Source: Candidatus Falkowbacteria bacterium RIFOXYA2_FULL_47_19 (GTDB taxonomy: Bacteria > Patescibacteriota > Patescibacteriia > Patescibacteriales > UBA12075). Taken from it: a stretch of 64,000 bases of DNA. The position numbers and the translations under genes were made by a program. Positions within the stretch are counted from its first letter, which is position 1, and each line of letters begins with the position of its first letter. The notes beneath the pieces are model-generated. The model did no database searches and was not told where the DNA came from. It saw only the letters and a list, made by a program, of their open reading frames with translations. This document shows positions 5,366-63,885 of the stretch, in pieces. The stretch lies in assembly GCA_001780275.1 (NCBI GenBank), contig MFGB01000023.1, positions 5,375-69,374 on the forward strand. The letters run 5' to 3'.

Positions 5366-5367
5366 AA

Positions 5368-22230: not shown

Positions 22231-23850
22231 ATGAAAAAAACGTCTTCGGTGTTTTTATTTTTTTTAACTTTAGCGTTCCTGCTGATCGGATGCTCGGGCG
22301 GGGGCGGAGCGGGAGGCGAGAGCGGGGCGGATGATCCCGGGAATCATGATAACGGAGGAATACCTTTACCCTTGGCTCCGACCGCCGCGATCTGGGCTTC
22401 AAGCGAGGCTATCAATGAAGGAGAAAGCGTACTGATCAGCTGGGAAACGGCGAACGGAACCGCGGAACTCTCTCCGCCTGTAGTTTATGACGCGCCGGCC
22501 GCGGGCAGTATCGACGTGATCCCCGCGGCTACGACCACTTATACGGTAACATGCCGGACTCCGGACGGACGGACCGAATCGGCCGGCGTAACCGTAAAAG
22601 TCAATCCGGCCCCGGTAAGGTCCTGTAGGGCGCCGGAAATCCCTTATTTCGAGCTCCTGCCCGAACGGATATTGACGCCCGGAAGCGGTCTCGTTACTCT
22701 TGCGTTTAAGACGGCGGAAAACGCGGACAGGATCGAGATCGACCTTGAAAACGGGGAAACGATCCCTCTGGTGAGGGTTTGCGAAGCGAATTGGAGCGTT
22801 TCCGTGGATTCGGAAAAACTGCTCTTAAATTACGTACCGGAAGAACCGCGGGTGGTCGTCGGCTACCTTGACGCGTATTCGGGGCCAGACCGTATCAGCC
22901 GGCGCAATCTTATCCTCCCGGTACGGACCGCCGCTATGCCGGATACGGATATGCGGATCATCGATCATAGCCGGCAAAGAAGCGGCCGCGTGCTGAATAT
23001 CCGCTATGACGGGGAAATATTTCTCGGCGGACAAAGCAGTACGTACGACCCGGTCTGGAGGGCGATAGAAAATACCGTTAAGAACGAACTAGGCGAGCGG
23101 GATATTTACGTTTTGATCGGCCAGGTCGAGGCGTTCGCGAATCGGACCGGAGGAGGAAAGGTCATTTCTTTTCCCAACCTCTTTTTCTTCGATCTCGCGA
23201 GTCGGGGAACGATACATGAGATCGGCCATTGCCTGGGATTGGCTTATTCCAGCCACCCTTCGCTGCGTGATCCGGCCGCCGGCGGCCATTGGGCTCCGGG
23301 AAACGCGGCTCTGGGTATTATGGGCTGGTCGCTTCCCGGGGGCGCGGGAGCGACATTCCCTTATCGCCTGGAAGCCGGGGATGATCCCGACACGACCGGA
23401 CTATGGGTAACGCCGATCGCCATGGAGTTTAACGATCTTGAACTCTATAAAATGGGCGCGCTTCCGAAGGAGCGGGTCGCGCCGATAACGCAATTTACCG
23501 ATCCGGCCGCGGCCATCTCCTGGTTTAATAATCCTTATCCGCTTCCGTCCTGCGGCGAAAGCTGCCAGCGGCTCGATGTTCCGTCCCGGCCGGTTTCGAT
23601 AGATGAAATAATCGCGGCGGACGGCGAAACGCCGCCGGCGGCCAAAACCGGGCTTACCCTGGGAACGGTCGTCCTGACCAGGGGAAGGCTTCTTAGTCCC
23701 GATGAAATGTCCTTTATCGAATATATGGCCAAACGCGGCGAAAGCGAAGATCCGTCGATCGGCGTCCACGAAGGGTTGTGGAGTTACGCGGGGAAACCGT
23801 TCCGGGCGGCCACCCGGGGACTTTTTACCATAAGCGCTTCAATCGATTAA
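22231..23850 (+). CDS. lipoprotein with zincin-type HExxH motif (putative metalloprotease)
   Basis: Lipobox 'LLIGCSGGGG', 'GTIHEIGHCLGL' (HExxH) and a GGAGAG RBS upstream. Confidence 0.6.
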   Translation: MKKTSSVFLFFLTLAFLLIGCSGGGGAGGESGADDPGNHDNGGIPLPLAPTAAIWASSEAINEGESVLISWETANGTAELSPPVVYDAPAAGSIDVIPAATTTYTVTCRTPDGRTESAGVTVKVNPAPVRSCRAPEIPYFELLPERILTPGSGLVTLAFKTAENADRIEIDLENGETIPLVRVCEANWSVSVDSEKLLLNYVPEEPRVVVGYLDAYSGPDRISRRNLILPVRTAAMPDTDMRIIDHSRQRSGRVLNIRYDGEIFLGGQSSTYDPVWRAIENTVKNELGERDIYVLIGQVEAFANRTGGGKVISFPNLFFFDLASRGTIHEIGHCLGLAYSSHPSLRDPAAGGHWAPGNAALGIMGWSLPGGAGATFPYRLEAGDDPDTTGLWVTPIAMEFNDLELYKMGALPKERVAPITQFTDPAAAISWFNNPYPLPSCGESCQRLDVPSRPVSIDEIIAADGETPPAAKTGLTLGTVVLTRGRLLSPDEMSFIEYMAKRGESEDPSIGVHEGLWSYAGKPFRAATRGLFTISASID

Positions 23851-37605: not shown

Positions 37606-37777
37606 GCTGTTTATAATTTAATTATTATTTTTCTTTTACGCATAATTAATTGTATAGAGAAAATCAAATTTTGACAAATGCCTGCCGTGATTAAATATTT
37701 TTTATATTTTTATTTTAGCGTTTTTTACATAACCCCAGGCAGGGCTATAATAAAATAATGTTTAAATTTTAAAAAAA

Positions 37778-37808
37778 GCCGGTTGCACGCATTTGAAATG
37801 CAACCGGC
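37778..37808 (-). terminator. intrinsic terminator of the rSAM-peptide unit
   Basis: A 10-bp stem GCCGGTTGCA/TGCAACCGGC followed, in minus sense, by a T7 run (37771-37777). Confidence 0.7.
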
Positions 37809-37891
37809 GATAATAATACTACCGCGACAATGGACGGCTTGTTATATTTCGGGGGCACAGAGACTCAAGCCGCCACGATTATTTGCCGCGA

Positions 37892-38092
37892 CTAGTACAG
37901 CGGACAGCAGTCTCCTTGTGGGCTGCCGGAGTCGAAACAGCACTGGCAAACTTGATATTCCTGGCCGATAGCGCGTCCTACCGAGGAAATATTGGTCCCC
38001 AGGAAACATTCCTCGAACAGTCTGCTGGCCAGACTGGAAGTATTGTCCGATTGGCCCGATGATCCTTTGATGTCTTGATTGCGGTTAATCAT
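37892..38092 (-). CDS. Cys-rich 66-aa peptide, candidate RiPP precursor
   Basis: MINRNQDIKGSSGQSDNTSSLASRLFEECFLGTNISSVGRAIGQEYQVCQCCFDSGSPQGDCCPLY. It has 6 Cys, five of them in the last 19 residues. Its ATG overlaps the rSAM stop (ATGA at 38089-38092). Confidence 0.5.
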   Translation of the reverse strand: MINRNQDIKGSSGQSDNTSSLASRLFEECFLGTNISSVGRAIGQEYQVCQCCFDSGSPQGDCCPLY

Positions 38093-39132
38093 GCGGTTAC
38101 TCCTTTCTTAATATATCGCTGTGGATGGAAATAGAACCATTTTATTGGACAGCCCCCGAAGCAATTTACCCAATCCGCGCACTCAATGCAGTCGGCAGAC
38201 GGATAATTATTCATCATTCGCCTGAAATTCAGGCATTTGTCTCCGTACCAGAACGCTTTGAACGAGCCGATATCGGTAAAATCCGCGCCATAACTTCCCA
38301 AAGCATAATCAGTGAATTGATGGCATGGTATGACCTCGCCCTCGGGAGAAAATATCAATCCCGATCCGACTCTGGCATAGCAGGTCCCGGTAAGCATTTT
38401 TCTTTTTATGGCTATCGCTTTAATGTCGGGATCCAGCAAGCAGAGAGGTATTGAGGGCGCCAGAAACATATCCTTATCGATACTGGGAATTTTCCTGATG
38501 ATCCGGGTATACGCGTCCGCGATCTGAACAGGGTCAGGCGCGTCCATGTCACGCGCTTTACCGTCTATAATGACGGGATTAGCGAAGTTCATGGCGATAG
38601 AATTCGCCTCCAAAGAGGAGAGAAATTCAAGAGTCTTATCGATATGACCAAGAGCGGTTCTGCCGAAGGTAAAAAAAAGGCTGGGAGACAATCCTTCTGC
38701 CGCGAGATTCTTTATCCCTTGGCACACGTCGTCGAAGCCGTCGGCATTCGTCTGCCGCATATATTGTTCCCGATCTATTCCTTTTAAGGAAATGCTGATA
38801 TTTTGGAATTTATACTTGGCCATTTTCCTGGAAAAACGTATATCCGAGAACCTCCGGCCATTACTAGTGATCATAATTCCCATGCCGTTTTGCGATATCA
38901 GATCAAGAACGTAAAATAGATCCCGATACAGGTTCGGCTCTCCCCCAATGAGAGAAACGGTTTTTATCCCCAAATCAGCCATAAAGTTAACCAGCGACTC
39001 CGCCTTTTCTCTTGACATTGATGATGCCGGATCGAATCCTGCCCCCTGGGCATAGCACCAGCTGCATCTGTTCTCACACGCCCGATTCACGGTAAGCCAA
39101 CCCATACTTATGTTTTTTTGCACGTCCATCAT
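38089..39132 (-). CDS. radical SAM enzyme with a C-terminal SPASM-type auxiliary cluster domain
   Basis: 'CENRCSWC' (CX3CX2C) near the N-terminus and 'CIECADWVNCFGGCP' near the C-terminus. I place the start at MMDVQ (39132), preceded by AAGGGGGA. The track ORF extends to 39189. Confidence 0.85.
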   Translation of the reverse strand: MMDVQKNISMGWLTVNRACENRCSWCYAQGAGFDPASSMSREKAESLVNFMADLGIKTVSLIGGEPNLYRDLFYVLDLISQNGMGIMITSNGRRFSDIRFSRKMAKYKFQNISISLKGIDREQYMRQTNADGFDDVCQGIKNLAAEGLSPSLFFTFGRTALGHIDKTLEFLSSLEANSIAMNFANPVIIDGKARDMDAPDPVQIADAYTRIIRKIPSIDKDMFLAPSIPLCLLDPDIKAIAIKRKMLTGTCYARVGSGLIFSPEGEVIPCHQFTDYALGSYGADFTDIGSFKAFWYGDKCLNFRRMMNNYPSADCIECADWVNCFGGCPIKWFYFHPQRYIKKGVTA

Positions 39133-39300
39133 TCCCCCTTTTATTTGATTTGCAAAGAACGTTGCACTGGAGCTTCCGCTCCTCTTCAAAATGAGCAGTT
39201 TTTATTTTTCCCGATGATTCATTGGCGAATTCGCCCAATTTAACTATGCAATATAAAAATTAATATGGTATTAATGCCGACAGGGGCCTGCGGAACCCGA

Positions 39301-39330
39301 AAAAAAAGAGGGGCAGGATTGTCCGCCCCT
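39301..39330 (-). terminator. intrinsic terminator after the 39340-39852 gene
   Basis: In minus sense, an AGGGGC..GCCCCT stem is followed by a T8 run. This separates the upstream two-gene unit from the rSAM unit. Confidence 0.7.
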
Positions 39331-41312: not shown

Positions 41313-42221
41313 TTAATTAAAAAATTTTCCGGTTAATTCCTGAATCGGCGCGAGGAAATAACCAGTGACATAGCTCGTGGTACTGTCGATATCCTCTTTG
41401 CCCGCGAGCCGGGCTGAATTCGAATTATTAAGAAGGGTGAATTCCGCCCCCTTAAGCTCGCCGTATTTCATGAGAGCGTAAAGCGAGGGCGGCGAATCGA
41501 TATCGAGAGCGTAAACGGCGCCGAAATCCGCTTCGGCGAGCGCGGCGATCGCGGCCCGGTCATGGGCGGCGGCGGTTGGGCCGTCCTGATAATGGGAAAA
41601 ATCTATGCTCGCGATCACGAACGTCTTCCGTTTACGCGCGAGCGACTCGAGCGCGGCGGCCAAACGGGCGGCCTCATCCGCTTTGACCTCCGATTTAAGC
41701 ATTATGGGCACGAATCCAGCCTTGGGAAAGGTCTTTTTTATGAATCCGGCCTGGCTTGTCATCGAGTGGTCGGCGTTCACTGCCTCCGGATCGATCCCCG
41801 CCCCCAAAGCCTCCTTAAGTTCGGCTAAAGCCGACCGGTCGCATTTTAGCGTTCCGAAAGGCGTGTCCCAACCGTAATCCGAACTGATAAACACGCTTTC
41901 GCCCGCGCCGTAATGGTTCGGCCCGATCAATACGACAAGATCCGGTTCTTCCCCGGCCAGATTGGAATAAAATTCGGCGATCAGGTCGCCGGCCAGAAGA
42001 TGGTGCGGCACCACTCCGGCCAGAGCGGACCGGCCGCCAAGATCGGCCGTCTTCTTTTTAAAACTATAGACGGTATCGTAGAATTCCCGGTCATAAGGCG
42101 CGGCCCGGTGCGTTCCCTCCGCTCCGGCGCTGTCGTCAACCGTATAAGAAGAGCGGAACAGGCCCGCTGTTGCCAGGCCGGCTAATATCAAAATGAAAAT
42201 TAGAACCGTCTTTTTATCCAT
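41313..42221 (-). CDS. Memo-like (AmmeMemoRadiSam system protein B family) protein with an N-terminal TM anchor
   Basis: 'GVVPHHLLAG', 'VVLIGPNHYG', 'DHSMTSQAGFIKKTFP' and 'ASIDFSHY' parallel the Memo/LigB-superfamily motifs. Confidence 0.65.
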   Translation of the reverse strand: MDKKTVLIFILILAGLATAGLFRSSYTVDDSAGAEGTHRAAPYDREFYDTVYSFKKKTADLGGRSALAGVVPHHLLAGDLIAEFYSNLAGEEPDLVVLIGPNHYGAGESVFISSDYGWDTPFGTLKCDRSALAELKEALGAGIDPEAVNADHSMTSQAGFIKKTFPKAGFVPIMLKSEVKADEAARLAAALESLARKRKTFVIASIDFSHYQDGPTAAAHDRAAIAALAEADFGAVYALDIDSPPSLYALMKYGELKGAEFTLLNNSNSARLAGKEDIDSTTSYVTGYFLAPIQELTGKFFN

Positions 42222-42223: not shown

Positions 42224-44734
42224 TTATTTCATGAGCTCACGGCTCCAGGCGTCCGCGGCCGGCAGATCTCCCTTCCCGTCGTAAACCCTCTCCTGCCAGT
42301 CTTCGTCAGCGTAGCGTTCGGTCAATGGTCCCGTCAGTTCGTAGTGGTTGAAAACGGCTCCGCGGGTCAGGCGCGCGCCGTTGGCATCCTCTACGGCCGC
42401 GTAGATTATATAGGGCTTGCCGGTGGCTTCGTAGAGGATCCGGCCGGAAACCGCGTCCGTATGGATATCGGCGATAATGCCGGCCCGGCGCTCTTTGTCG
42501 GAAAGTTCTTCCCCAGGCAGGGGCGCGGCCAGGTCTTCGAAGATGAAACCGCTTACCCTTAATTTCTCGAAATCTTCTTCGCTGATCACTTCGTCCTTAA
42601 GCTCTTTTTCGGCCAGGCCGGCGAAGAATCCGCAGATATCGGCAAAAGTCTTATACCGGACGCCGAAATATTCCGGCATGAGCCCCCGTTCCGTTAATCC
42701 ATTGTCCGTCATCCTGGCCAATGCCTTGATCCGCGACCAGAACGCCGGATCGGCCTCGACGTAACCCTTCGGTACGGGCGGAAGCTTGGACGGATTATCG
42801 CCGCCGCCGCCTCTTTCGGCGTACGACTGCTTGGCGTAAAGGAGGGTATCGTGCTTGAGCTCGGCATAGGAACCGAGAACCGTGCCCAGATTCTTCTTCT
42901 GCCACTCGCCGGTCGTCATGAAATACGGATAGCCGGGGCCGTAGCCGGAAAGGAGGGAGCGGTAGGAATCGAGCCAGCTCCAATAGATATTCTGGGTCCA
43001 GACCGCTTCATCAAAAGCCGCGAATTCCTCCCTTAATTCCCGGGTCTTCTTCGCTATGATCCGATCGGAAGCGGACGCCTCGGCCGCCACCCAGACGTCG
43101 ACGTATTTCCCGACCGTCGCGTTGCCCGGAGCTATGATATTTACGGGCATCAGGGCGGTCGTCATGGAGGGGAGGTTCTGGCCCGTTTCCGGATCGGGCG
43201 CTCCCACTCCCTGGGTCAGCTGATTCAATATATAAGCGTCGGGCGTGAAACGCTGGCCCATGAAGCGGAACTGCATCAATTGCCGCAAAAGCGCGTCCCG
43301 TTCTCCCCCGTTGTCGTAAAGATCGACCGCCTCGGAAACTATCCGCGGCCTGGGCAATTTTTCTATGGCGGCGCCTATGAAGGCGCGCAGGGCGCTATCG
43401 TCGGCCAGACGCTCCGCTGCCACGGTCTCGCCGTAAACCTCCCGGATAAGACCGGTGTATTCGTAAGGCGTCAGGTCATCGACCTGGCCCACGAAGAATT
43501 CGATCGCGCCCGCCATGTCGGCGTAGATTTCGGCCACGGCCCGGCCGCCGGCCTTAAGGCTGTTCACCTGGCCGGTGATCATGATCGCGTCCCGGGTAAG
43601 TTCGGGGGAATCGAGGGAAAAGCCCATCCGGCCGTACCACATCATGGCGATGAAATAGCTTTTGAGCGCGTCGTTTTTGGTATAATGGGACCGCGGCTTG
43701 AACTGGGAATAATCGTTTTGAAGATACGGCCGGTAAGGCGTGAAAAGTGGCGACGGGGCGAGACCCTTCGCCTCGCGGATCAGTTCAAGCTCGGCTTGCG
43801 CCGGAGAAAAGATATCGCCGCCAAGCTCGCGGCCGTTGTAGCGCGGTTCATCCAGGGAAAAATCCAGCCCGGCCCGGCTGATCTCCTCGTCCCTCGCCTC
43901 TTTGGCGGCGAGAAATTGCGCGTAAGTATCGAAATCCTCCGGTTTTAATTCGGTCCGGCCGCGATCGGCCGCGTCCAGGACGACCAAGGGCACGAGATAA
44001 AAAACGGCCAAGCGCCCATAACTGTCTTTGAGCGCCGGATCGGACGCTGTTTCGTAATTACGGAGCGAATCCTCGAAAAGAGCCCTGGTTATTTCCTTGA
44101 GCATCGGCTGAAATTTTATCTCTTCGATCTTCTGGAAACTGCGGTCGACCAATATGTGGTAAAGATGGAGCGCTACGTCGCTCGTTATAAAAAGAGCGTT
44201 ATCGGCCTGCCGGTAATACTTGTTCGAGCTGCCGCTAAAAGCCTCGTAAATATCGGCGAAATCGTCATTCCCCGATCTTTGCTCCCCGACCATATCTTCG
44301 TCGGAGAGAAAAAAACCGGCGGCGGAGAGGGCTTCAAGTTCGCTCTCCGAAAATTCCCGCTTGAAATCGTCCAGGTTCTTAAGTTCATCCGCCGTCGGTT
44401 TATACGCGGGCAGGGACGGTATGACCGCCGCCGTCCCGGCATCATCCGATAGCGCGAACACCGGTTTGACCAGGGAAAATACGAACGGAACGGATCCCTC
44501 TTTCGGGAGCGCATCTTCTCCGGCCGTTGCGTAACCGCCCTCGTCCGCCGGAGCGACGGAAGTATCGGGCGCGGGCACGGACGGTTTCGGCCGGCTCGTA
44601 TAATAAGCCGCGCCGGCGCCGATCGAAAGCGCCAGGAATAATAACACGATCATTTTCCGGACGTACGATCGGCCGGGGTTATGCGGCCAACCGGCGCCTT
44701 CATTATTAATTTCCGATTTTATTTCTTCCGGCAT
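42224..44734 (-). CDS. large membrane-anchored extracytoplasmic protein, DUF3160-like (from memory)
   Basis: An N-terminal TM helix, and 'FKPRSHYTKNDALKSYFIAMMWYGRMGF', which resembles the DUF3160 signature as I recall it. Confidence 0.5.
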   Translation of the reverse strand: MPEEIKSEINNEGAGWPHNPGRSYVRKMIVLLFLALSIGAGAAYYTSRPKPSVPAPDTSVAPADEGGYATAGEDALPKEGSVPFVFSLVKPVFALSDDAGTAAVIPSLPAYKPTADELKNLDDFKREFSESELEALSAAGFFLSDEDMVGEQRSGNDDFADIYEAFSGSSNKYYRQADNALFITSDVALHLYHILVDRSFQKIEEIKFQPMLKEITRALFEDSLRNYETASDPALKDSYGRLAVFYLVPLVVLDAADRGRTELKPEDFDTYAQFLAAKEARDEEISRAGLDFSLDEPRYNGRELGGDIFSPAQAELELIREAKGLAPSPLFTPYRPYLQNDYSQFKPRSHYTKNDALKSYFIAMMWYGRMGFSLDSPELTRDAIMITGQVNSLKAGGRAVAEIYADMAGAIEFFVGQVDDLTPYEYTGLIREVYGETVAAERLADDSALRAFIGAAIEKLPRPRIVSEAVDLYDNGGERDALLRQLMQFRFMGQRFTPDAYILNQLTQGVGAPDPETGQNLPSMTTALMPVNIIAPGNATVGKYVDVWVAAEASASDRIIAKKTRELREEFAAFDEAVWTQNIYWSWLDSYRSLLSGYGPGYPYFMTTGEWQKKNLGTVLGSYAELKHDTLLYAKQSYAERGGGGDNPSKLPPVPKGYVEADPAFWSRIKALARMTDNGLTERGLMPEYFGVRYKTFADICGFFAGLAEKELKDEVISEEDFEKLRVSGFIFEDLAAPLPGEELSDKERRAGIIADIHTDAVSGRILYEATGKPYIIYAAVEDANGARLTRGAVFNHYELTGPLTERYADEDWQERVYDGKGDLPAADAWSRELMK

Positions 44735-45472: not shown

Positions 45473-46195
45473 TTATTTCGACAGCAATTTATTCAACCAG
45501 CCGAACAGACCGAACCCCCTGCCTTCTTCCTTGATTTCTCCCGCTAACTCCGTCTTGGCCTGCTCCATGATTTCAATCTGTTCATCCAAAATTTCCGCAT
45601 CAGCTTCATTCGTTATTTGAGAGGCCAATTCTTTTAGTTCTTCCAGTTTTTCCGCGTGAGCTGCCAATTTGTTCTCTGCCATATAGATATATTTGTTCGG
45701 ACCAAAGAAAAACCTCCATACCGCATTTCCCCTGTTATTCTTTGCATGTTCCAATGTTGTTTCTATTTCCTTTTGGTTCTGATCTTGATTCTGGGCGATG
45801 GTCCTGATTTGCTGCCCGACGCCATGGTTACGTTCCGCCACTTGAAGCATCTGTTCAACAGCATTGGCCACCCTGCTTCGTCTTTGAGCAGCCCTATCAT
45901 TGAGCTGGCCTCCCTTGCCATTCCCGTTAATTGATTTTTTACCAGCCTGGGCGTTCTGTTGCAATTCAACTTGATTCTGCTGTTCTTCTCCCTGGTTTTG
46001 TAAACTGGTGGCGTTCTGGGCTTCCAGTCCTTGACCAATTCCCTGTCCAGCTTCTTCGAGCTCGGGATTTTCAATCCCAGTACCAGCTTCTTGGACTCCT
46101 TTCTGTCCGCTTTGATTTCCCTGAGCAAAAGATAAAAATGGGACAAGCATTAAAGACAAAACCATAATGCTTGTTATAGTTTTAAAGTGTTTCAT
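45473..46195 (-). CDS. secreted Gln/Glu-rich coiled-coil protein, hypothetical
   Basis: Signal peptide 'LMLVPFLSFAQG', a low-complexity Q/N/G region and a helical C-terminal half. Confidence 0.5.
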   Translation of the reverse strand: MKHFKTITSIMVLSLMLVPFLSFAQGNQSGQKGVQEAGTGIENPELEEAGQGIGQGLEAQNATSLQNQGEEQQNQVELQQNAQAGKKSINGNGKGGQLNDRAAQRRSRVANAVEQMLQVAERNHGVGQQIRTIAQNQDQNQKEIETTLEHAKNNRGNAVWRFFFGPNKYIYMAENKLAAHAEKLEELKELASQITNEADAEILDEQIEIMEQAKTELAGEIKEEGRGFGLFGWLNKLLSK

Positions 46196-46209
46196 AGATT
46201 TAGTTTAAA

Positions 46210-46785
46210 ATGATATTATGCCTTTATTATAACATTTTTAGCGCCTTAATTAAAGTTATGCCATATAACTACATCCGAAAAAATGCTATCATAAAAAATA
46301 AGAGAAAACCAATGGACAAAACCAGTATCAATCAAAAACTCAAAACCGTTTTCTGGATAACATTTATTATCTATTTTTTGGTTTTAATAAAACTGATATT
46401 TTTCAAGCTCCCCCTGCCAGCTGTTTTAATGATCATAACCGGCGATGATATAAACTACGCCCATTCAGTAAACATAATCCCATTCAAAACCATCATTTTT
46501 TATTTACATGGCAATCCATTACCGCACATCGCCTTTAAAAATCTTCTGGGGAATATTTTGTTTTTTATCCCGTTTGGTTTTTTGCTTCCTGTGCTTTTGT
46601 CCAAAATCAACTCTGCCAAAAACATCTTAATCGCCTCCGCAACTTTCTCGCTTCTACTGGAATTATTACAAATATTTCTTCATCTCGGCTCTTTTGATAT
46701 TGACGATATATTTTTAAACACCGTTGGAGCTTTGATCGGGTATTTGGTTGCCTTGAAAATCTTTACTCCAAAGAAACAGACTTGA
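46210..46785 (+). CDS. VanZ-like family membrane protein
   Basis: 'VNIIPFKTI', 'GNILFFIPFGFLLP', 'LLLELLQIF' and 'DIDDIFLNTVGALIGY'. The likely start is the internal Met (MDKTSINQ). Confidence 0.75.
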   Translation: MILCLYYNIFSALIKVMPYNYIRKNAIIKNKRKPMDKTSINQKLKTVFWITFIIYFLVLIKLIFFKLPLPAVLMIITGDDINYAHSVNIIPFKTIIFYLHGNPLPHIAFKNLLGNILFFIPFGFLLPVLLSKINSAKNILIASATFSLLLELLQIFLHLGSFDIDDIFLNTVGALIGYLVALKIFTPKKQT

Positions 46786-48772
46786 AGGCATTCCACCATT
46801 TGGAACAATCTTCACAGCGAGCGTAGATGGTAAATAATTTACCGTCTTTAAAAAACGCCGCTGTTTTTTCATACTCGTACGCTTCCGTGTCGCTCTCCTG
46901 ATATACAACTATTGCCTCATTGCCATCGATATCTATTCTGTCATCAACTACCGTCCGCAGATAATGTCCGCCCCCGTCTTCATACATTTTAGCTAGCTGT
47001 TCATTCTTTTTGACGAACCATTCATCCAAAGTGTTAACATCGGGATTGTCTAATATACTAATTGAGGCTAAACCTGGTCCTCCGTTTGGCACAACAAAAG
47101 TAACAACCTTATCGATCAACTCTTCTCCGCCACCCATTCTTTCCGAATATTTTCTTATATCATCATTTATTATTCTCACTTTCAAATTTGACGGATAATC
47201 CATGGTAAAGCCATATTCATCGTCCTTGTATTGCCAATAAATATTTTCGCCCGCTTCAATCGGCCTGAAACTTTTATCATCCATTTTTAGATCAGCTAAA
47301 ACTTCGTCTATACCGTAATATATCAAACCGTAGTCTTCCCTAGACGGCATCTCGCCCTCTGCCACGGTGATTATGTAATCATCGGTCTGGTATATCGGCC
47401 GTTGGTTGTCCTGGCTATAAATTTTATCAAGCCCGAAAGAACGCGGATAAAAAGAAAGCGAAAATAAAAACTTTATATCACCGCCGTTAACATGATCAAA
47501 CTGTAAACTTTTTTTATCCTCGTCCTCTACGTGTCTGATATTTACATTTTCAGACCACGCTGGCGGGTAATTAATTTCAAGACCGCTTAAAGCGTCTTTA
47601 AAATAACCCTGCCTACTTCTTCGCTCATCGCAGACAGCGGTGCATATGCCGTTATCACACCTGGTGGTCGGACATTTCATGCAACTGTAAACACAGGTTG
47701 AGTCAAATGAATCGACGAGCCCCCCGATTCTCTCCGCTTCATCCTTGTTAACGAAGGCATGGCACCCGAACGGGCACTGGCCGCCCGTGCCCGCAAAAGC
47801 GTCCTGGCAATCCGAATCAATCTGGCAATAATTGGCTTTTCTGATTTCCTTTATGATGTAGGCGGCTTTGATTTTATCCCTTATTAAAAATGCCGATATC
47901 AAAACAAGAAGAAGGGCTATCAGTGATACTTTAAAAATAGTTTTACCCTTAGGTCTTCTGAATATATTTTTAAATAAAAAAGATAGAGCGATAAAACCAA
48001 GAAGCCCGAGTCCCAGGATCACGACATAGGGAGCAACCGCAATATAACTAAAATACAAATACATTTCGTCTTGAAAAAATACTCTGACCGCTTCGGCGTT
48101 GGATAAAAACACGAGTGAAAAAAGCAGATTATACACCCAGATAAAATAATTGTATTTTGAATCTTTAATTTGGCTTTTTGCGTAAGAAAAAAACAATACC
48201 AGATAAAGAGCCAAGAAAAGGCTGGTAACCGGCAATTCCAGTTTCCAGCGTCCATGACGAGGAAAACCGATCGCAAAAACAAAATAAAAATTAGCAGCCA
48301 GCAAAAAAAACGCTCCTAGGGCAAATGATTTTAGAAACGATATTTCCAAATTGATTTTGAATTTTCTTTCTGGGAAAAATACCAGATTTACCCCCCTGAC
48401 CACGAGCCCGATAAGCCCACCAGAAAAATAAATGCCCGCTAAACCGAGATGCCCCACCATCTCGTCAAAGTCTTTGAACGGATTGAAATAATCAAATATC
48501 GGAGCATTTACATTGTCACCAAAATAGACAAAGAGTTTTACTAAAAATATAGTCGCTAAACTGAAAACGAAAGCACTCGCAATTAATTTAGGCAGATACT
48601 TGTAGCTCCTGTCTTCGTCTTGCAAAAGAACCGCCAGTGCTCCCGCCAATACAGGAAACAAAGCAAAAACTGGAGCCCAATTCCAAGTATAAGCTAAAAG
48701 ATTGTCGACATTCAAAAATAAAAGAAATCCGATTATAGTGGTAGATAGATTTAATGTTATAAGTTTTTTCAT
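46763..48772 (-). CDS. polytopic membrane protein with a Cys-rich and beta-rich extracytoplasmic C-terminal region
   Basis: About 9-10 TM segments, a Cys cluster ('CQIDSDCQDAF...CPFGCHAF...CVYSCMKCPTTRCDNGICTAVC') and two 'F.(M/I).YP' type domains. Confidence 0.6.
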   Translation of the reverse strand: MKKLITLNLSTTIIGFLLFLNVDNLLAYTWNWAPVFALFPVLAGALAVLLQDEDRSYKYLPKLIASAFVFSLATIFLVKLFVYFGDNVNAPIFDYFNPFKDFDEMVGHLGLAGIYFSGGLIGLVVRGVNLVFFPERKFKINLEISFLKSFALGAFFLLAANFYFVFAIGFPRHGRWKLELPVTSLFLALYLVLFFSYAKSQIKDSKYNYFIWVYNLLFSLVFLSNAEAVRVFFQDEMYLYFSYIAVAPYVVILGLGLLGFIALSFLFKNIFRRPKGKTIFKVSLIALLLVLISAFLIRDKIKAAYIIKEIRKANYCQIDSDCQDAFAGTGGQCPFGCHAFVNKDEAERIGGLVDSFDSTCVYSCMKCPTTRCDNGICTAVCDERRSRQGYFKDALSGLEINYPPAWSENVNIRHVEDEDKKSLQFDHVNGGDIKFLFSLSFYPRSFGLDKIYSQDNQRPIYQTDDYIITVAEGEMPSREDYGLIYYGIDEVLADLKMDDKSFRPIEAGENIYWQYKDDEYGFTMDYPSNLKVRIINDDIRKYSERMGGGEELIDKVVTFVVPNGGPGLASISILDNPDVNTLDEWFVKKNEQLAKMYEDGGGHYLRTVVDDRIDIDGNEAIVVYQESDTEAYEYEKTAAFFKDGKLFTIYARCEDCSKWWNAFKSVSLE

Positions 48773-49152
48773 GATAATTTTTTATCAACATCTTGTTTCT
48801 TAAACTCCTTTCGCTTATTAATCTTTTTCTTAAAAAACAAAACTAAACGGCCCAGCAAATAGCCGATAAAAAAATACTGCAAGATGCCAACGATAAAAAG
48901 AAAAATAGTCTGCGGGACTATGGAATCGCTCGTTAAAAAAGGCGACAAAATAAAACTCCCTAAGGTAGGCAAAAGAATTGAGGACGGCATATGAAGTATC
49001 ATCAAGCCCAAAAGCCCTTCTTCAAATATTCCTGGACGATAATTCAATAACCCGTAAGCAACAAACCAAACCCAAAGCCCCAAATCAAGCAGCGCCGTAA
49101 TGAGACCGAAAAACACCGGGAGAGATATTTTGTTTTTTATTTTTTTAAACAT
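48769..49152 (-). CDS. small 4-TM membrane protein
   Basis: Hydrophobic throughout. A 4-nt overlap with the downstream gene suggests co-translation. Confidence 0.5.
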   Translation of the reverse strand: MFKKIKNKISLPVFFGLITALLDLGLWVWFVAYGLLNYRPGIFEEGLLGLMILHMPSSILLPTLGSFILSPFLTSDSIVPQTIFLFIVGILQYFFIGYLLGRLVLFFKKKINKRKEFKKQDVDKKLS

Positions 49153-49167
49153 AAATTTTTATTTTTT

Positions 49168-50340
49168 TTACAGCAAAACAATATCATCAACGATATTTTT
49201 ATATAGCTTTTCAAATGGTGTGTCAGAAAAATAAAAAATATTAACAATATAACCTTGATTCTCTACGTATATATTATTACCGATACCGCCGGAAAACGGG
49301 TCGCTAATCTTGATTAGCAGGGCCGGTTTTTCGTCTACAAGTATTTCGTGCTGAGAATAGACAGGATACATCTCTTTGTCAGTTGTCTTTTGTTCGATAT
49401 CATTCATTACTCTTTCATATTCTTCCTGAGTTATTCTTTCAATTCTTAGCGATGAAAAAATTCTACCTGATGGGTCTTGATTTGCAACTTCAAGCGGCGT
49501 TATCATGATGCGGTTTTGCGAGTCAATTTCTTCGATAGAAAAATTATCGAGATACGGGAAACTGACTCCCAGATCTTTATTCTTGTATTTGTTTTGTTCT
49601 ATTTTTTTATAACCCCGCACCGTCCAAACCTGTCCGTCCGAATCCCAATAAGAAACAAGATAAATTTCCGCATTGTTCTTTTTATTTTCCAAGAGCACCG
49701 TAGCCTGAGAAAAACCGGTATCTTCATCACTGCTGGATGCAATCAAAGTCAGCCTGTCAAAAGCTCCCATGCTCAAATACTTTAAATCGCCTTTCTCAAG
49801 TTCATAATCGGCTACGGCCATAGGATTGGTTCTCCATTCCAAAACACCCTCATAATAGAGCGACTGGTATATTTTCTGGACTTCTTTTTCCAGTCTGGGG
49901 GTAACTTTAACCATATTATCGTCATACATTTCATCAATCTGCTGTTGCCGTAAAAACCTTATATCATGTTCCATTACAGAGGCTTTCATGGGAAGATAAA
50001 AAATTACAAAGGCCAGAAGAATAGATAATACGGTATTTATGAATCCCGCTCTTCCCGCTTTCTTATCCTTACGATAGAATATCCAAACAAATATCGAGAA
50101 AAGCAATATCACCCCCAATATTGGCAAGAACGGCATTAGAAAAAAAGTTATATAATTGAAATCAAAAAATTTTACCATGCCACTGCCGAAATTATCATTA
50201 AATGTCCGCCCCGACATGCAGCCAAGCCATAATAACTTTGGCACCGCAAACATTACATAAACTAAAAATGACAAAAAAATTAATAAAACCGACAAAAAAT
50301 AGACAAAAATTTTATTAATTACCAATAACCCCTTTTTCAT
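49168..50340 (-). CDS. membrane protein with an extracytoplasmic C-terminal domain
   Basis: About 4 N-terminal TM segments, then a soluble domain. No recognisable motif. Confidence 0.55.
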   Translation of the reverse strand: MKKGLLVINKIFVYFLSVLLIFLSFLVYVMFAVPKLLWLGCMSGRTFNDNFGSGMVKFFDFNYITFFLMPFLPILGVILLFSIFVWIFYRKDKKAGRAGFINTVLSILLAFVIFYLPMKASVMEHDIRFLRQQQIDEMYDDNMVKVTPRLEKEVQKIYQSLYYEGVLEWRTNPMAVADYELEKGDLKYLSMGAFDRLTLIASSSDEDTGFSQATVLLENKKNNAEIYLVSYWDSDGQVWTVRGYKKIEQNKYKNKDLGVSFPYLDNFSIEEIDSQNRIMITPLEVANQDPSGRIFSSLRIERITQEEYERVMNDIEQKTTDKEMYPVYSQHEILVDEKPALLIKISDPFSGGIGNNIYVENQGYIVNIFYFSDTPFEKLYKNIVDDIVLL

Positions 50341-50412
50341 AAATAATTTTAATTAATTTCTTGTATATTCTTAATTATAGTCTTTTCAATTCAATTCCGC
50401 AACCTTTCAATC

Positions 50413-50443
50413 AAAAAATACAGCTAACGTTGGCTGTATTTTT
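50413..50443. terminator. bidirectional hairpin terminator
   Basis: AAAAATACAGC-taacgttg-GCTGTATTTTT. Confidence 0.6.
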
Positions 50444-50499
50444 ACGAACACGGGGCGGGCGGCGTTCGAACCAGTAATCGCATTTAGCCACCCTTAACT

Positions 50500-51951
50500 T
50501 TATTTTTTATTTTGAAGCAGGGCAACAAAACTATTATTACTCACAACCAGTTCCCATCCGTATTTACCGAAAAGTTTTTTAAGTTGATCAAAATTTACTT
50601 CCTTGTTTTCTATATCTTCTTCCTCTGAAAAGGTTCCTCGCCAGATGGTTCCGATCCGCGAAACCCTTGTAATTTCCTGAAAATATTCTTCAATCTTTTT
50701 TAGCGTAGACGGCAAAAACGCCGGAAAAGATTCCACGCTCAAAAGACGATTAAAACTATCGGTTTTAAAAGAAAGCGCGCCAAAATCGCCTGACACCAAA
50801 TTAGATATTTTTTCGTCTGGTTGCTGATAGGCTAACCTGTGGTCAAGGCCTACGCAGCTAATATTTTTCTCTTTGTATTTATTATTAATTTCTTCAGTTA
50901 CTTTACCCAACCCGGATCCAAGATCCAATATCTTTGCCCCTTTTTCAAAAAAACCATCCAAACCACCAAATAAATTTTTCTCTGGCCAATCCCATTCAAA
51001 ATTAATTGACTTATTTCTTTCCCCTCCCTGTTTTGCCGGCAAATAATGCTCGAGCGTATGATAATATTTTTTATACCCAAATCTCTCATACGCTTTCGAC
51101 GGATCTTCTGGTCTTTTATTCAACCACTTGTAATGCTCTGCTTCTGGAGAATCCTTAAAAATCATTTCTTTATAATCTTTTAACATCCTCATGTTATAAG
51201 CATGCCACCCAGCATCATCATACCCATCGGGTCTGGGAATGTCAGGAACCCCGAATCTCTTTGCCGGTTGTATTTTTTCCTTAGTGATTTTTACATCACA
51301 ATATTCAATGCCACCCCCTTCATACTCTCTTAAAAATTTAACCTGAAAATCACGGCTAAGCACCTTTAATTCGCTCTTCTTTAAACTCGTAATATAAGCC
51401 GAGCCCCCTGGTCGCAATAAATCGCAGATTGAACTTAAATTTTCTTCCCTGCTTTTTTCATCGTTCAAATAACGCATTGAAGCTACACAATCGATAATAA
51501 TATCAAAAGATCCCGGCCCAAAAGGCAATTGCGGCGCTAAAGCCGCCACGCTATTTGAACCGCTCTCTTTTATCTTTTTCAACCTCTTACTTTGAAATTC
51601 ATCAGGATTTTTTACAGTCATATCCTTGCCCCATTTCATTTTGGGCTGCCCCCTCTCTTTATACTGGGCAATTGAATTACCGAGCTTTTCTATATACCAA
51701 TCTCCACTCGCCAAATCTTTGAAATCCATTCCGAGAGTAGGGTCAATCGACACGATCTTCAAATCACCTCTTTTGCCCCTTAGTTCTTCTTCGAACTTTT
51801 GATAAAGTCCGCTGCCTATATTCAAAACCATGCCATCTTTGGGAAATTTATCGATTTCGCTTTCTTCAATTCCCATATCTTCAAGTACTTGCTCTAAGCC
51901 CCTGTCTGTCACTGATAATTCCCCTATTTTTTCTAAATTGATTTTTTCCAT
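50500..51951 (-). CDS. protein with two class I SAM-methyltransferase-like domains
   Basis: Two motif-I-like segments ('MVLNIGSGLYQ', 'AKILDLGSGLGKV'), each followed by acidic motif-II-like strands. Confidence 0.55.
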   Translation of the reverse strand: MEKINLEKIGELSVTDRGLEQVLEDMGIEESEIDKFPKDGMVLNIGSGLYQKFEEELRGKRGDLKIVSIDPTLGMDFKDLASGDWYIEKLGNSIAQYKERGQPKMKWGKDMTVKNPDEFQSKRLKKIKESGSNSVAALAPQLPFGPGSFDIIIDCVASMRYLNDEKSREENLSSICDLLRPGGSAYITSLKKSELKVLSRDFQVKFLREYEGGGIEYCDVKITKEKIQPAKRFGVPDIPRPDGYDDAGWHAYNMRMLKDYKEMIFKDSPEAEHYKWLNKRPEDPSKAYERFGYKKYYHTLEHYLPAKQGGERNKSINFEWDWPEKNLFGGLDGFFEKGAKILDLGSGLGKVTEEINNKYKEKNISCVGLDHRLAYQQPDEKISNLVSGDFGALSFKTDSFNRLLSVESFPAFLPSTLKKIEEYFQEITRVSRIGTIWRGTFSEEEDIENKEVNFDQLKKLFGKYGWELVVSNNSFVALLQNKK

Positions 51952-52001
51952 TTATTTTAAACTAAACGTATTATATATAACAATATCACAAAAGTGTTCC
52001 A

Positions 52002-52369
52002 TTGTCATCTGTTTCAAACGAAAAAAATCCGCCGATGTCAACAGAGCATTTTATCGCGATCTACCTGAGCGCCCGGCACGGCGTAATCAAAACGGAATTA
52101 GTCAGTCTCGGCACTCTCACTGCCAGCATCGTCCACCCGCACGAGGTTTTCCGGCCGGCTATCATGAGCCGGGCCTCAAGCATCATCGCTCTCCATAATC
52201 ATCCCTCGGGCGATGTCTCCCCCTCTGAATCGGATATTGAACTGACTAAGCGATTAAAAAATGCCGGGCCTGTCCTGAGTTTATCGAAGGGCAACTCGCC
52301 GGCATTGAAGTTTTGGATCATGTGATATTTTGCGCGGGAAAAAAATTTTATTCTATCGACGGCAAATAA
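52002..52369 (+). pseudogene. JAB-only RadC-like gene disrupted by a 23-nt insertion
   Basis: 'EHFIAIYLSARHGVIKTELVSLGTLTASIVHPHEVFRPAI...ALHNHPSGDVSPSESDIELTKRLKNAGPVL', then a frame break. The expected continuation GIEVLDHVIFCAGKKFYSIDGK* is in another frame from 52301. Removing 52278-52300 restores '..AGPVLGIEVLDH..'. Confidence 0.65.
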
Positions 52370-52485
52370 ATATCTCAATAAAAATTACTTATACTTCTAT
52401 ATTGTTTCAATCACCTTTTTCAAATTTTCCTCCGCCCCGGGGGTATTCTAAAAAACCATTTTTACCATAAACGGTATTTTATTAA

Positions 52486-53184
52486 TTAAGTTTCCAGAAC
52501 GCATTGTCTAATATTTTCACACCCGTTATTATCTTTATACTTAATAAAATAATCTATCTCTTCAGATTTCACATTACTTGATTTGATAAACTCGATTAAC
52601 TTTCTGGTCCATTCATTCCCCATTTGGTCATTAGTATATTTGACATCAACTACCTGAAAATCACCACCTCTTAAAAATACTGTTGCTCCATTATCAACAA
52701 TTGAATCAGTCTTAGAATTGTAAAATTTTACTTGAGGCAAAAAACTAAATTCTGAATTTTTTATACTTAATACTAATAAAGGTTTTTCTATGCTACCACT
52801 GCAAGAAGATTTATTAAAAATTTTAAAAGAAAGATAGAAGTCATAATCTTGATTTATTAATATACTGATAGGACCCTTCTTAATTCTTGTTAAAGCGCTC
52901 TCTCCATTTTCGTATTTACGGTTAAAACAACTAACCAGATTTATATCAGACATTTTTAAATCAGACTTCATTTGATATGCTGTCATTTTGGCCATCTCCC
53001 TTGTTTGATGAGCATAAAAACCAGTGATAATAACAAGAACTAAAGTAATAATTGCAAGTAAAAAATTAGAATAATCATTTAAAGTGTCAATATAAATATA
53101 TGCCAAACGACCAGATGTAAATAACACAATCAATAGTCCTGCTATTAACAAATTTTTTCTAGAAAATATTTTTTTCATATACAT
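52486..53184 (-). CDS. 2-TM membrane protein with a beta-rich C-terminal domain; likely operon partner of the giant protein
   Basis: There is a 9-nt gap to the stop of 53194-57012. Two N-terminal TM helices. Confidence 0.5.
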   Translation of the reverse strand: MYMKKIFSRKNLLIAGLLIVLFTSGRLAYIYIDTLNDYSNFLLAIITLVLVIITGFYAHQTREMAKMTAYQMKSDLKMSDINLVSCFNRKYENGESALTRIKKGPISILINQDYDFYLSFKIFNKSSCSGSIEKPLLVLSIKNSEFSFLPQVKFYNSKTDSIVDNGATVFLRGGDFQVVDVKYTNDQMGNEWTRKLIEFIKSSNVKSEEIDYFIKYKDNNGCENIRQCVLET

Positions 53185-53193
53185 AGATTATTG

Positions 53194-57012: not shown

Positions 57013-57170
57013 AGCTACTTAAATCCGTTAACGCACCCGTTAACGTTTATAACCTTCATAATTTAACCTGTTTCATTAAATGCGATATACGCTCGGTAAT
57101 TACCACCTTGTTCTCTAGGTAATAGGATCTTGCTGAAAAAAATTTATCGAAGTATCCCCAAAATTCCACA

Positions 57171-57836: not shown

Positions 57837-57842
57837 GTACCA

Positions 57843-59615: not shown

Positions 59616-59652
59616 AAAAGAAAAACAGTTCCCTCGGAACTGTTTTTCTTTT
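59616..59652. terminator. perfect 17-bp stem hairpin
   Basis: AAAAGAAAAACAGTTCC-ctc-GGAACTGTTTTTCTTTT. Confidence 0.6.
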
Positions 59653-63837: not shown

Positions 63838-63885
63838 AGTTTTAGTTTAGAATTAATAAGCTTATTTTTATATAAAAAAAGACAC

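What the first reader, a model, noticed from the sequence alone, without database searches (positions are those of the whole stretch)
37892..39132. Radical SAM/SPASM enzyme translationally coupled to a C-terminally Cys-rich 66-aa peptide: candidate novel RiPP pair
The rSAM gene (CX3CX2C plus a CxxCx5CxGGC SPASM signature) ends in ATGA, where the ATG starts a peptide whose last 19 residues are QVCQCCFDSGSPQGDCCPLY. The pair has its own upstream region, including a near-palindrome TTGGCGAATTCGCCCAA at about 39222-39238, and its own terminator (37778-37808). It is insulated from the upstream genes by the terminator at 39301-39330. Having the peptide downstream of the maturase, and this particular Cys pattern, does not match the SCIFF, sactipeptide or ranthipeptide precursors I know.
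Basis: partly seen in the sequence, partly recalled or inferred. Interest (0 to 1): 0.6.

Follow-up and report, generated by a model that had tools for sequence, protein, structure and literature searches.

The report
Uncharted radical-SAM enzyme plus Cys-rich peptide
A groundwater "candidate phyla radiation" bacterium carries a two-gene cassette, an iron-sulfur radical enzyme followed by a 66-residue peptide ending in the invariant sequence GDCCPLY, that looks like the kit for a chemically modified peptide of a family nobody has curated or characterised.

Summary
Window 38089-39129(-) encodes a 346-aa radical SAM enzyme with a SPASM-type C-terminal domain. Its TGA stop overlaps the ATG of a 66-aa ORF (37892-38092), and the pair lies between two intrinsic terminators.

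The small ORF is a real gene. The same kind of peptide follows all four enzyme relatives at 54-68% identity. Residues LFxxxFLGTx[IV]SS and P[QK]GDCCPLY-stop are invariant, while the codons differ at synonymous positions.

The enzyme reaches no NCBIfam cut-off (best 79 bits against 325). It lacks a peptide-recognition (RRE) domain, and its closest folds are anSME, SuiB and CteB. It belongs to a family of about 1,758 clusters at 50% identity, in Patescibacteria and gut Clostridia. In 65% of sampled loci a Cys/Asp-rich peptide follows the enzyme directly; control regions give 3-9%. A 'DC' dipeptide marks these cores.

Best reading: an enzyme-substrate pair of the RiPP type, most likely forming Cys thioether cross-links near the peptide's C-terminus. 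The pairing is well supported. The chemistry is inferred only. No protease, exporter or RRE gene is linked in the window. I rate it a new variant of a known kind and a good experimental lead.

The parts
38089..39129 (-). Radical SAM/SPASM enzyme gene (346 aa; alternative ATG at 39132; the mechanical ORF extends to TTG 39189)
   Evidence: ORF. Pfam Radical_SAM scores 71 bits against a cut-off of 29.5. It is identical to database protein P0001. AF2 model: pLDDT 91, pTM 0.89. Foldseek matches to anSME, SuiB and CteB at TM about 0.7. GenBank names it 'hypothetical protein A2303_05680'.
39055..39078 (-). CX3CX2C motif (C18, C22, C25) for the SAM-binding [4Fe-4S] cluster
   Evidence: Read from the sequence. 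Invariant in 31 family members.
38131..38448 (-). SPASM-type auxiliary-cluster domain: C230, C250-X18-C269 (with GX4C) and C314-X2-C317-X5-C323-X3-C327. No Cys follows the last motif.
   Evidence: Six of the seven Cys are invariant and C317 is nearly so in alignment A1. Pfam SPASM scores 17.2 bits, below its cut-off of 21.5. The profile aligns through the SPASM domains of SuiB, anSME and CteB.
38100..38103 (-). GGAG ribosome-binding site for the peptide gene, 7 nt before its ATG and inside the end of the enzyme gene
   Evidence: Read from the sequence.
37892..38092 (-). Precursor-peptide gene (66 aa plus stop). Its ATG overlaps the enzyme's TGA (ATGA).
   Evidence: The same peptide type follows all four close enzyme homologues. 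Profile searches find only five such peptides among 5.8 billion proteins. It is not annotated in GenBank.
37982..38020 (-). Conserved leader motif LFEECFLGTNISS (clade consensus LFxxxFLGTx[IV]SS)
   Evidence: Invariant residues L25, F26, F30, L31, G32, T33, S36 and S37, with synonymous codon changes. It aligns in register with the 'YKGTxIxAP' motif of the wider family: hhalign P = 7e-4, probability 26%.
37895..37951 (-). Cys-rich core CQCCFDSGSPQGDCCPLY. The last nine residues, P[QK]GDCCPLY (37895-37921), are invariant in the clade.
   Evidence: The 'DC' dipeptide is the hallmark of cores in the wider family.
37771..37808 (-). Intrinsic terminator ending the two-gene unit (11-bp stem plus U7)
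   Evidence: RNA fold.
39299..39330 (-). Intrinsic terminator of the upstream gene, which insulates the cassette
   Evidence: Terminator scan: 8-bp stem, 6 GC pairs, then a T-run.
39222..39238 (.). Near-palindrome TTGGCGAATTCGCCCAA in the 5' spacer. It may be an operator; function untested.
   Evidence: A single exact copy in the window. It is not conserved evidence.

Best explanation
This is a minimal two-gene cassette for a ribosomally made, post-translationally modified peptide (RiPP).

- The 66-aa product is the substrate of the radical SAM/SPASM enzyme encoded just upstream.
- The enzyme has no RRE domain. It probably recognises the conserved leader segment (LFxxxFLGTxISS) directly on its catalytic or SPASM body.
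- It would use the 5'-deoxyadenosyl radical to abstract a hydrogen atom in the C-terminal core, then close one or more intramolecular Cys-sulfur-to-carbon (thioether) cross-links in or next to the invariant GDCCPLY end. The auxiliary Fe-S clusters would handle the thiolate and the electron.

Shown: gene structure, conservation and selection of the peptide, pairing of enzyme and peptide across the family, domain architecture, and absence from curated families.

Inferred: that the peptide is the substrate, that the reaction is thioether formation, which atoms are joined, and what the product does.
For: - Pairing: a peptide of the same type follows each of the four enzyme homologues at 54-68% identity, in otherwise unrelated neighbourhoods.
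- Selection: the invariant leader and C-terminal residues show third-position codon changes at almost every codon.
- Family-wide rule: 54 of 83 loci have a small same-strand ORF with at least 4 Cys in 30 aa right after the enzyme. Controls give 6 of 83, 7 of 75 and 2 of 71 (sequences).
- Core composition: cores are 25% Cys and 19% Asp. An acidic residue precedes 49% of Cys (shuffles 23.5%, z = 14.8). The window's invariant GDCC fits this pattern.
- Enzyme: CX3CX2C plus seven conserved SPASM Cys. The closest solved relatives by sequence and fold are peptide- or protein-modifying SPASM enzymes: SuiB, SkfB, PqqE, anSME, CteB and ChlB.
- Precedent: Cys-to-Asp/Glu thioethers are made by PapB, which needs a carboxylate C-terminal to the Cys and can even link Cys to a C-terminal residue (PMC12373016, PMC9413430).
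Against: - No chemistry was tested, and homology cannot assign the reaction. All NCBIfam hits are 37-79 bits against cut-offs of 180-855, among the 25 best hits shown.
- The window core has no CX3D motif. Its conserved Asp61 lies N-terminal to Cys62/63, the wrong order for PapB-type chemistry.
- No protease, exporter or RRE gene is present near the cassette. No HExxH ORF of 80 aa or more occurs within about 4 kb of the window cassette or in the fetched flanks of its closest relatives, and no homologue of the relatives' HExxH proteins occurs anywhere in the 64-kb window.
- Leader homology with the wider family is weak. An HMM of 57 leaders scores the window peptide 5.3 bits, rank 5 of 1,430. 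hhalign gives only 26% probability.
- About 30% of family loci show no obvious peptide.
Confidence: 0.6

Rival explanations
1. Same enzyme-substrate pair, but different radical chemistry on the invariant C-terminus. Either the terminal Tyr is oxidatively decarboxylated and cross-linked, as MftC does on MftA (...GVY). Or a Cys is oxidised, as anSME does on C-x-P-x-R; here the sequence is C62-C63-P64-L65-Y66. Or a C-C or C-O cross-link forms to Tyr.
For: - The last nine residues, ending in Leu-Tyr-COOH, are invariant across enzymes only 54% identical. That resembles cofactor-type precursors more than variable antimicrobial cores.
- The MftC model scores 58 bits, similar to the PapB model at 56 bits.
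- anSME is among the best structural matches and also lacks an RRE.
- C-x-P-x is present at residues 62-65 (read from the sequence).
Against: - The MftC and anSME cut-offs (265 and 349 bits) are far from met.
- No Pfam match among the seven ORFs scanned within about 3.5 kb of the cassette identifies an MftB/D/E/F partner or a sulfatase.
- Cores in the wider family do not end in Tyr and lack CxPxR. They share Cys/Asp richness instead.
Confidence: 0.25
2. The enzyme works on something other than the peptide (a protein, cofactor or small molecule). The small Cys-rich protein is then a conserved accessory, for example a metal or Fe-S carrier, and not a substrate.
For: - The enzyme has no RRE, and no protease or exporter is linked.
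- About 30% of family loci lack an obvious peptide, and some instead carry a GNAT and a TyrRS-like gene.
- Cys/Asp-rich sequences bind metals (general knowledge).
Against: - The order enzyme-then-peptide on the same strand is tightly conserved across distant phyla with no other shared neighbour.
- The peptides have a leader-plus-core layout, with a conserved N-terminal motif and a hypervariable Cys-rich end.
- The nearest solved relatives modify peptides or proteins.
Confidence: 0.1
3. The 66-codon ORF is a chance open frame and only the enzyme is real.
For: - It is not annotated in the GenBank record.
- A single-sequence search found only the peptide itself.
Against: - Five variants share 17 invariant residues with synonymous codon drift.
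- Each has its own Shine-Dalgarno sequence.
- All five were called as genes by other pipelines.
- A terminator follows the ORF, not the enzyme.
Confidence: 0.02

Closest known systems
PapB/PapA (freyrasin; ranthipeptides)
   Same: A radical SAM/SPASM enzyme acting on a Cys- and Asp-rich core. Clostridial relatives of the window enzyme are followed by CSSDD-type repeats that fit PapA's CX3D pattern. The PapB model aligns end to end (residues 13-329).
   Different: The score is 56 bits against a cut-off of 340. PapB has an RRE (PMC12715619), and this enzyme has none. The window core has no CX3D, and its conserved Asp precedes the Cys. Across the family the hallmark is 'DC'. The precursor lies downstream of the enzyme.
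SCIFF / ScfB-CteB
   Same: A two-gene, transporter-less cassette of a SPASM enzyme plus a short Cys-rich peptide. CteB is a structural match (TM 0.67).
   Different: The peptide does not hit the SCIFF model. The ScfB-related model scores 38 bits against 855. CteB carries an N-terminal RRE, since the family profile aligns only to CteB residues 97-418. From my own knowledge, the SCIFF precursor gene is upstream of its maturase.
Anaerobic sulfatase-maturating enzyme (anSME)
   Same: About 370 aa, with no RRE and two auxiliary clusters. It is one of the best fold matches (TM 0.71). It recognises a short local motif, C/S-x-P-x-R; the window peptide has C-C-P-L-Y.
   Different: The sulfatase_rSAM model is not among the window enzyme's best 25 hits and scores 53 bits against 349 for a relative. 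No sulfatase is nearby. The partner is a dedicated small peptide.
MftC/MftA (mycofactocin) and PqqE/PqqA
   Same: SPASM enzymes that act on a short peptide with an invariant C-terminal motif containing Tyr (MftA ...GVY; here ...PLY).
   Different: Scores are 58 bits against 265 (MftC) and 39 against 381 (PqqE). No RRE chaperone (MftB/PqqD) or downstream pathway gene was found near the cassette.
Three-residue cyclophane synthases (ChlB, triceptides)
   Same: A compact SPASM maturase with a solved complex with its precursor's leader (9gm3; TM 0.71). That is a structural precedent for how a compact SPASM maturase binds its leader. Triceptide gene clusters are also associated with HExxH proteins (PMC12636437).
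   Different: Identity is 14%. Triceptide cores carry aromatic-x-x motifs, not Cys/Asp. The HExxH partners of this family's relatives do not match the alpha-KG-HExxH model.

Membership tests
Radical SAM superfamily (PF04055) | CX3CX2C cluster motif and a model score above the cut-off | tested here: met
   CENRCSWC is present. PF04055 scores 71.2 bits against 29.5. The motif is invariant in 31 homologues.
SPASM subfamily (PF13186 / TIGR04085) | C-terminal CX9-15GX4C ... CX2CX5CX3C ... C motif binding two auxiliary clusters | tested here: inconclusive
   An upstream Cys, a C-X18-C element with GX4C (longer than the canonical 9-15 spacing) and CX2CX5CX3C are all conserved. The fold and profile align through the SPASM domains of solved enzymes. 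However, Pfam SPASM scores 17.2 bits, below its cut-off of 21.5, and the final Cys of the canonical motif is absent in the family. Cluster content is not testable here.
RiPP biosynthetic pair (generic) | A short precursor gene adjacent to the modifying enzyme, with a conserved leader and a core | tested here: met
RiPP biosynthetic pair (generic) | Enzyme-dependent covalent modification of the peptide | not testable with these tools
   Needs co-expression or in vitro assay with mass spectrometry.
RiPP biosynthetic pair (generic) | RRE domain, fused or discrete, for leader binding (common, not universal) | tested here: not met
   CX3CX2C starts at residue 18. The family profile aligns to SuiB residues 136-451 and CteB residues 97-418, that is, without their N-terminal RREs. 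Neighbouring ORFs have no PqqD-like Pfam hit.
Ranthipeptide, PapB family (NF047865) | Model score of at least 340 bits, and CX3D/E motifs in the core | tested here: not met
   The score is 56.3 bits. The window core has C-X1/X2/X4-D spacings and D-C, but no CX3D.
SCIFF system (ScfA/ScfB) | Precursor matches the SCIFF model and the maturase matches the ScfB model | tested here: not met
   The peptide has no NCBIfam hit. Only the ScfB-related 'not_ScfB' model appears for the enzyme, at 38 bits against 855.
Sactipeptide maturases (e.g. StsB NF045574) | Model score above the cut-off, and a sulfur-to-alpha-carbon link | tested here: not met
   The score is 68.6 bits against 625, over the N-terminal half only. 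The link chemistry is not testable here.
Mycofactocin maturase MftC (TIGR03962) | Model score of at least 265 bits, an MftA-type ...GVY precursor, and MftB/D/E/F neighbours | tested here: not met
   The score is 58.1 bits. The peptide ends in PLY. No such neighbours were found.
Anaerobic sulfatase maturase (TIGR03942) | Model score of at least 349 bits, and a sulfatase substrate gene | tested here: not met
   The model is not among the window enzyme's 25 best hits and scores 52.7 bits for a relative. No sulfatase was found among the neighbours scanned.
AmmeMemoRadiSam system radical SAM enzyme | Membership of the radical SAM family that partners Memo (TIGR04336) and AMMECR1 | tested here: not met
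   A Memo gene lies at 41313-42221 (116.6 bits against 26). The partner model is not among the 25 best hits of the enzyme. Memo is absent from homologous loci. A terminator and an opposite-strand regulator lie between the two genes.

The most novel reading that the evidence does not exclude
The roughly 1,700-cluster family of RRE-less enzymes and their 'DC'-rich peptides may be a new RiPP class with chemistry not yet described, for example a cross-link within or next to the Asp-Cys dipeptide. Within it, the rare Falkowbacteria/Moranbacteria clade would turn its invariant GDCCPLY end into a fixed small product, such as a redox cofactor, metal ligand or signal. That would follow the logic of PQQ or mycofactocin rather than of a variable antimicrobial, and it would sit in bacteria with minimal genomes that are usually reported to have almost no biosynthetic gene clusters.
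Probability: 0.15. Interest if true: 0.8.

Novelty: new variant of a known kind. Interest (0 to 1): 0.6.

Why it matters
Radical SAM-modified peptides have repeatedly yielded new enzyme chemistry and bioactive molecules.

The two large published catalogues of such enzymes were built by requiring either an RRE or a neighbouring ABC transporter (PMC10288494). A compact family with neither could fall outside both, although I did not test its members against either dataset. It has about 1,758 clusters at 50% identity, in Patescibacteria and in gut Clostridia and Bacilli. Its precursors are easy to recognise, and it has no curated model.

The window gives a clean minimal member: two genes, insulated by terminators, with an invariant nine-residue C-terminus. 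That makes it a tractable test case for the family's chemistry. It would also be one of the few predicted peptide natural-product pathways in CPR bacteria.

Tried and rejected
- Named families. NCBIfam and Pfam scans of the enzyme, the peptide, three distant enzyme relatives and four distant peptides gave nothing above any cut-off.
- Single-sequence search for the peptide found only the peptide itself. A profile search later found the four relatives and nothing more. A metagenome scan for P[QK]GDCCPL gave 52 pattern matches, but only 3 were confirmed, and all were known variants.
- Leader homology. An HMM of 57 wider-family leaders was run against all 1,430 six-frame segments of the window. 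The peptide scored 5.3 bits and ranked 5th, which is not significant. hhalign gave an in-register match at only 26% probability. I therefore do not claim proven leader homology.
- Linked protease. Three BLAST clusters of HExxH proteins follow the peptide in 29 related loci. The window has no homologue (best tblastn E = 0.013), and the clade loci have no HExxH ORF. These proteins match neither a curated peptidase family nor the alpha-KG-HExxH model, so 'leader peptidase' is only a guess for the relatives.
- AmmeMemoRadiSam link to the nearby Memo gene: rejected.
- My first Cys-count criterion (at least 3 Cys in the last 30 aa) gave 20-25% positives in controls. I replaced it with stricter thresholds and better controls.
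- Literature. Eight full-text searches found no description of this family or of CDCDC-type precursors.
Full report
**What is in the window**

On the minus strand, an ORF runs from 39189 (TTG) to 38089. The homologue alignment and the database entry P0001 place the real start at ATG 39129 (346 aa) or ATG 39132. The protein carries CENRCSWC (CX3CX2C) at residues 18-25 and CIECADWVNCFGGC (CX2CX5CX3C) at residues 314-327.

Its TGA stop (38091-38089) overlaps the ATG (38092-38090) of a 66-codon ORF that ends at 37892. A GGAG lies 7 nt upstream of that ATG. The peptide ends in QVCQCCFDSGSPQGDCCPLY.

An 11-bp hairpin followed by U7 sits at 37808-37771; the 136-nt stretch folded has z = -4.5, and none of 200 shuffles fold as well. 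The upstream gene ends in its own terminator at 39330-39299. The near-palindrome at 39222-39238 is present once, and nothing tested says what it does.

**Source organism**

Exact matches of six window proteins show that the DNA comes from Candidatus Falkowbacteria bacterium RIFOXYB2_FULL_47_14, a Patescibacteria (CPR) MAG. The enzyme also occurs on metagenome contigs from JGI, ENA and Logan.

In GenBank the enzyme is 'hypothetical protein A2303_05680', called with a shortened start. The next locus tag, 05675, is the downstream lipoprotein. The peptide gene is therefore not annotated there.

**Is the small ORF a gene?**

Yes. A single-sequence search found only the peptide itself. I then fetched the contigs that carry the four closest enzyme homologues (54-68% identity). 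Each has a small ORF right after the enzyme, on the same strand.

The five peptides share 17 invariant positions. These fall in two blocks, LFxxxFLGTx[IV]SS and P[QK]GDCCPLY-stop. At the DNA level, nearly every invariant residue uses different synonymous codons in different variants: Pro CCA/CCT/CCG/CCC, Gly GGA/GGG/GGT, Cys TGC/TGT, Leu CTG/TTG, Tyr TAC/TAT. That is the signature of selection on the protein.

The surrounding genes differ in all five loci, so only the pair is conserved. A profile search of 5.8 billion proteins and a DNA-pattern scan of JGI metagenomes recovered only these five variants, each next to its enzyme. The ATGA overlap is unique to the window. The others have 4-63 nt gaps with their own Shine-Dalgarno sequences.

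**What is the enzyme?**

- Pfam: Radical_SAM at 71 bits. SPASM scores 17.2 bits, just below its cut-off of 21.5.
- NCBIfam: 69 weak hits, none near a cut-off. The best is archaeal MoaA at 79 bits against 325. The peptide maturases StsB, WgkB, MftC, PapB, PqqE and DynA score 38-69 bits against cut-offs of 265-650.
- Conserved Cys: an alignment of 31 family members shows the three radical SAM Cys plus C230, C250, C269, C314, (C317), C323 and C327. The GX4C element is present, and no Cys follows the last motif. By the usual SPASM assignment (my own knowledge, Grell et al. 2015), the first auxiliary cluster would be fully ligated. The second would have three Cys and an open or non-Cys site. This is inference only.
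- PDB by sequence: a family profile hits SuiB best (91 bits). It aligns to SuiB residues 136-451 and CteB residues 97-418, that is, to everything except their N-terminal RRE domains.
- Structure: a confident AF2 model (pLDDT 91, pTM 0.89) matches BlsE (best E-value, 2.8e-13; TM 0.64), anSME, SuiB, CteB and ChlB, mostly at TM about 0.7 and 14-19% identity.

It is therefore a compact, RRE-less radical SAM/SPASM enzyme of no curated family.

**The wider family**

They occur in many Patescibacteria lineages, in gut Clostridia, Lachnospiraceae, Ruminococcaceae and Bacilli MAGs, and in a few others. One cultured strain is included, Pumilibacter muris.

An exhaustive profile search of 1.84 billion cluster representatives found 1,758 at E <= 1e-30, almost all 330-365 aa.

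In the fetched loci, a small same-strand ORF with at least 4 Cys in 30 aa lies just downstream of the enzyme in 54 of 83 cases. Controls give 6 of 83 on the antisense strand, 7 of 75 further downstream and 2 of 71 further upstream.

These peptides have an N-terminal motif such as L..YKGT.I.AP[IV]A.G[IV] and a hypervariable C-terminal part. That part is 25% Cys and 19% Asp. An acidic residue directly precedes 49% of the Cys, against 23.5% in shuffles (z = 14.8). The window's invariant GDCC carries the same 'DC' mark.

The leader link between the window clade and the rest is only suggestive:
- A leader HMM does not pick out the window peptide.
- hhalign aligns GT.I in register at P = 7e-4 but only 26% probability.

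None of these relatives or their peptides reaches an NCBIfam cut-off either.

**Accessory genes**

In 29 related loci, mostly CPR, an unannotated 125-290-aa protein with an HExxH motif follows the peptide. It matches no curated peptidase family and not the alpha-KG-HExxH hydroxylase model. The only hints are faint SprT and M76 similarity. It may be a leader peptidase, but RiPP-associated HExxH proteins can also be oxygenases (PMC12636437).

Neither the window nor its four closest relatives has such a gene. The neighbours scanned also show no RRE, exporter, sulfatase or mycofactocin gene. The Memo-like gene 2 kb upstream is an AmmeMemoRadiSam protein B. The enzyme is not of that system's radical SAM family, and Memo is not conserved next to homologues.

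**How it most likely works**

The conserved pairing, the leader-plus-core layout and the nearest relatives (all peptide- or protein-modifying SPASM enzymes) make an enzyme-substrate relationship the best reading. I put that at about 0.85.

The reaction cannot be read from homology. Cys/Asp-rich cores have characterised precedents in Cys-to-Asp/Glu thioethers:
- PapB (PMC9413430).
- QhpD (from my own knowledge).
- PapB needs a carboxylate C-terminal to the donor Cys and can use the C-terminal carboxylate itself (PMC12373016). In C62-C63-P-L-Y66-COOH, the only carboxylate C-terminal to the invariant Cys pair is the chain end, at CX3 spacing from C62.

I therefore favour thioether macrocyclisation at or next to GDCCPLY, at about 0.45-0.5 of the total. 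The rivals are MftC-like decarboxylation or cross-linking of the terminal Tyr, and anSME-like oxidation of a Cys in C-x-P-x. An unprecedented reaction at the Asp-Cys dipeptide is also not excluded.

**Novelty and limits**

Eight full-text searches found no description of this family. The two large catalogues of RiPP radical SAM enzymes required an RRE or a neighbouring ABC transporter (PMC10288494), neither of which this cassette shows. Subscription-only papers were not searchable.

The kind of system, a radical SAM/SPASM enzyme plus a Cys-rich precursor, is well known. New here are the RRE-less compact enzyme family, its downstream 'DC'-rich precursors, the rare clade with an invariant GDCCPLY end, and its presence in CPR bacteria. 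No modification has been observed, so everything beyond gene structure, conservation and architecture is inference.

Noticed in passing
window 1-10000, 10000-46000, 46000-64000: The G+C content is a mosaic: 29-42% on the left, 47-59% in the centre (where the cassette lies) and 27-40% on the right. The low-GC left arm carries a GmrSD restriction enzyme (1483-3279) and a type I restriction R subunit (6875-9685). This suggests acquired defence islands or, less likely, a chimeric assembly.
   Followed up: partly
window 53194-57012 (-), 46763-48772 (-), 11016-13304 (-), 22231-23850 (+): Several large ORFs (539-1,272 aa) have no Pfam match at E <= 1e-5. One is a 1,272-aa protein in the low-GC right arm, next to a DUF2326 protein at 61126-62871.
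   Followed up: no
window 1-64000: There are no tRNA genes and no Rfam family at gathering score anywhere in the 64 kb.
   Followed up: yes
window 41313-42221 (-) and 42224-44734 (-): An AmmeMemoRadiSam system protein B (Memo-like; TIGR04336, 116.6 bits) is nearly contiguous with an 836-aa DUF3160 protein. No AMMECR1 or matching radical SAM partner was seen among the ORFs scanned.
   Followed up: partly
window 37820-37895 (-): Directly after the peptide's stop codon, before the terminator, the RNA is predicted to form a long imperfect hairpin (first 77 nt of the fold). Its role is unknown.
   Followed up: no
L015 4323-5009, L060 4255-4863, L014 4260-4673 and 26 other loci: Three BLAST clusters of unannotated HExxH proteins (125-290 aa) lie just downstream of the Cys-rich peptide in 29 related loci, mostly Patescibacteria. 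They match no curated peptidase or alpha-KG-HExxH model.
   Followed up: partly
P0014; L011 4202-4729; L026 2146-2622 and four similar loci: GNAT acetyltransferases recur with the enzyme family. One is fused to the enzyme (516 aa), one follows the peptide, and five lie upstream in Clostridia loci where I found no peptide; four of those five also have a TyrRS-like gene downstream. This may be a subfamily with another substrate.
   Followed up: no
L005/L006 4493-7029; L010 1-1001; L027 4356-6734 and four similar loci: TraG/VirD4-like coupling-ATPase genes lie near the cassette in L005/L006 and L010 (Pfam). A recurrent roughly 790-aa P-loop (GSGKT) protein, which I did not scan against Pfam, lies near it in five Clostridia loci. 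This hints that some cassettes ride on mobile or secretion-related islands.
   Followed up: no
P0067, P0092, P0094, P0111: Four proteins of 1,028-1,318 aa match the family profile in 3-4 separate stretches. They are either tandem fusions of the enzyme or gene calls that run through tandem copies.
   Followed up: no
L010 1292-2547 and 3001-4065; L070 (two peptides); L067 1740-3059 (two HExxH genes): Some genomes carry tandem duplicates of the cassette or its parts. Examples are two enzyme genes in a row with a peptide after the first, two different Cys-rich peptides, and two HExxH genes.
   Followed up: no
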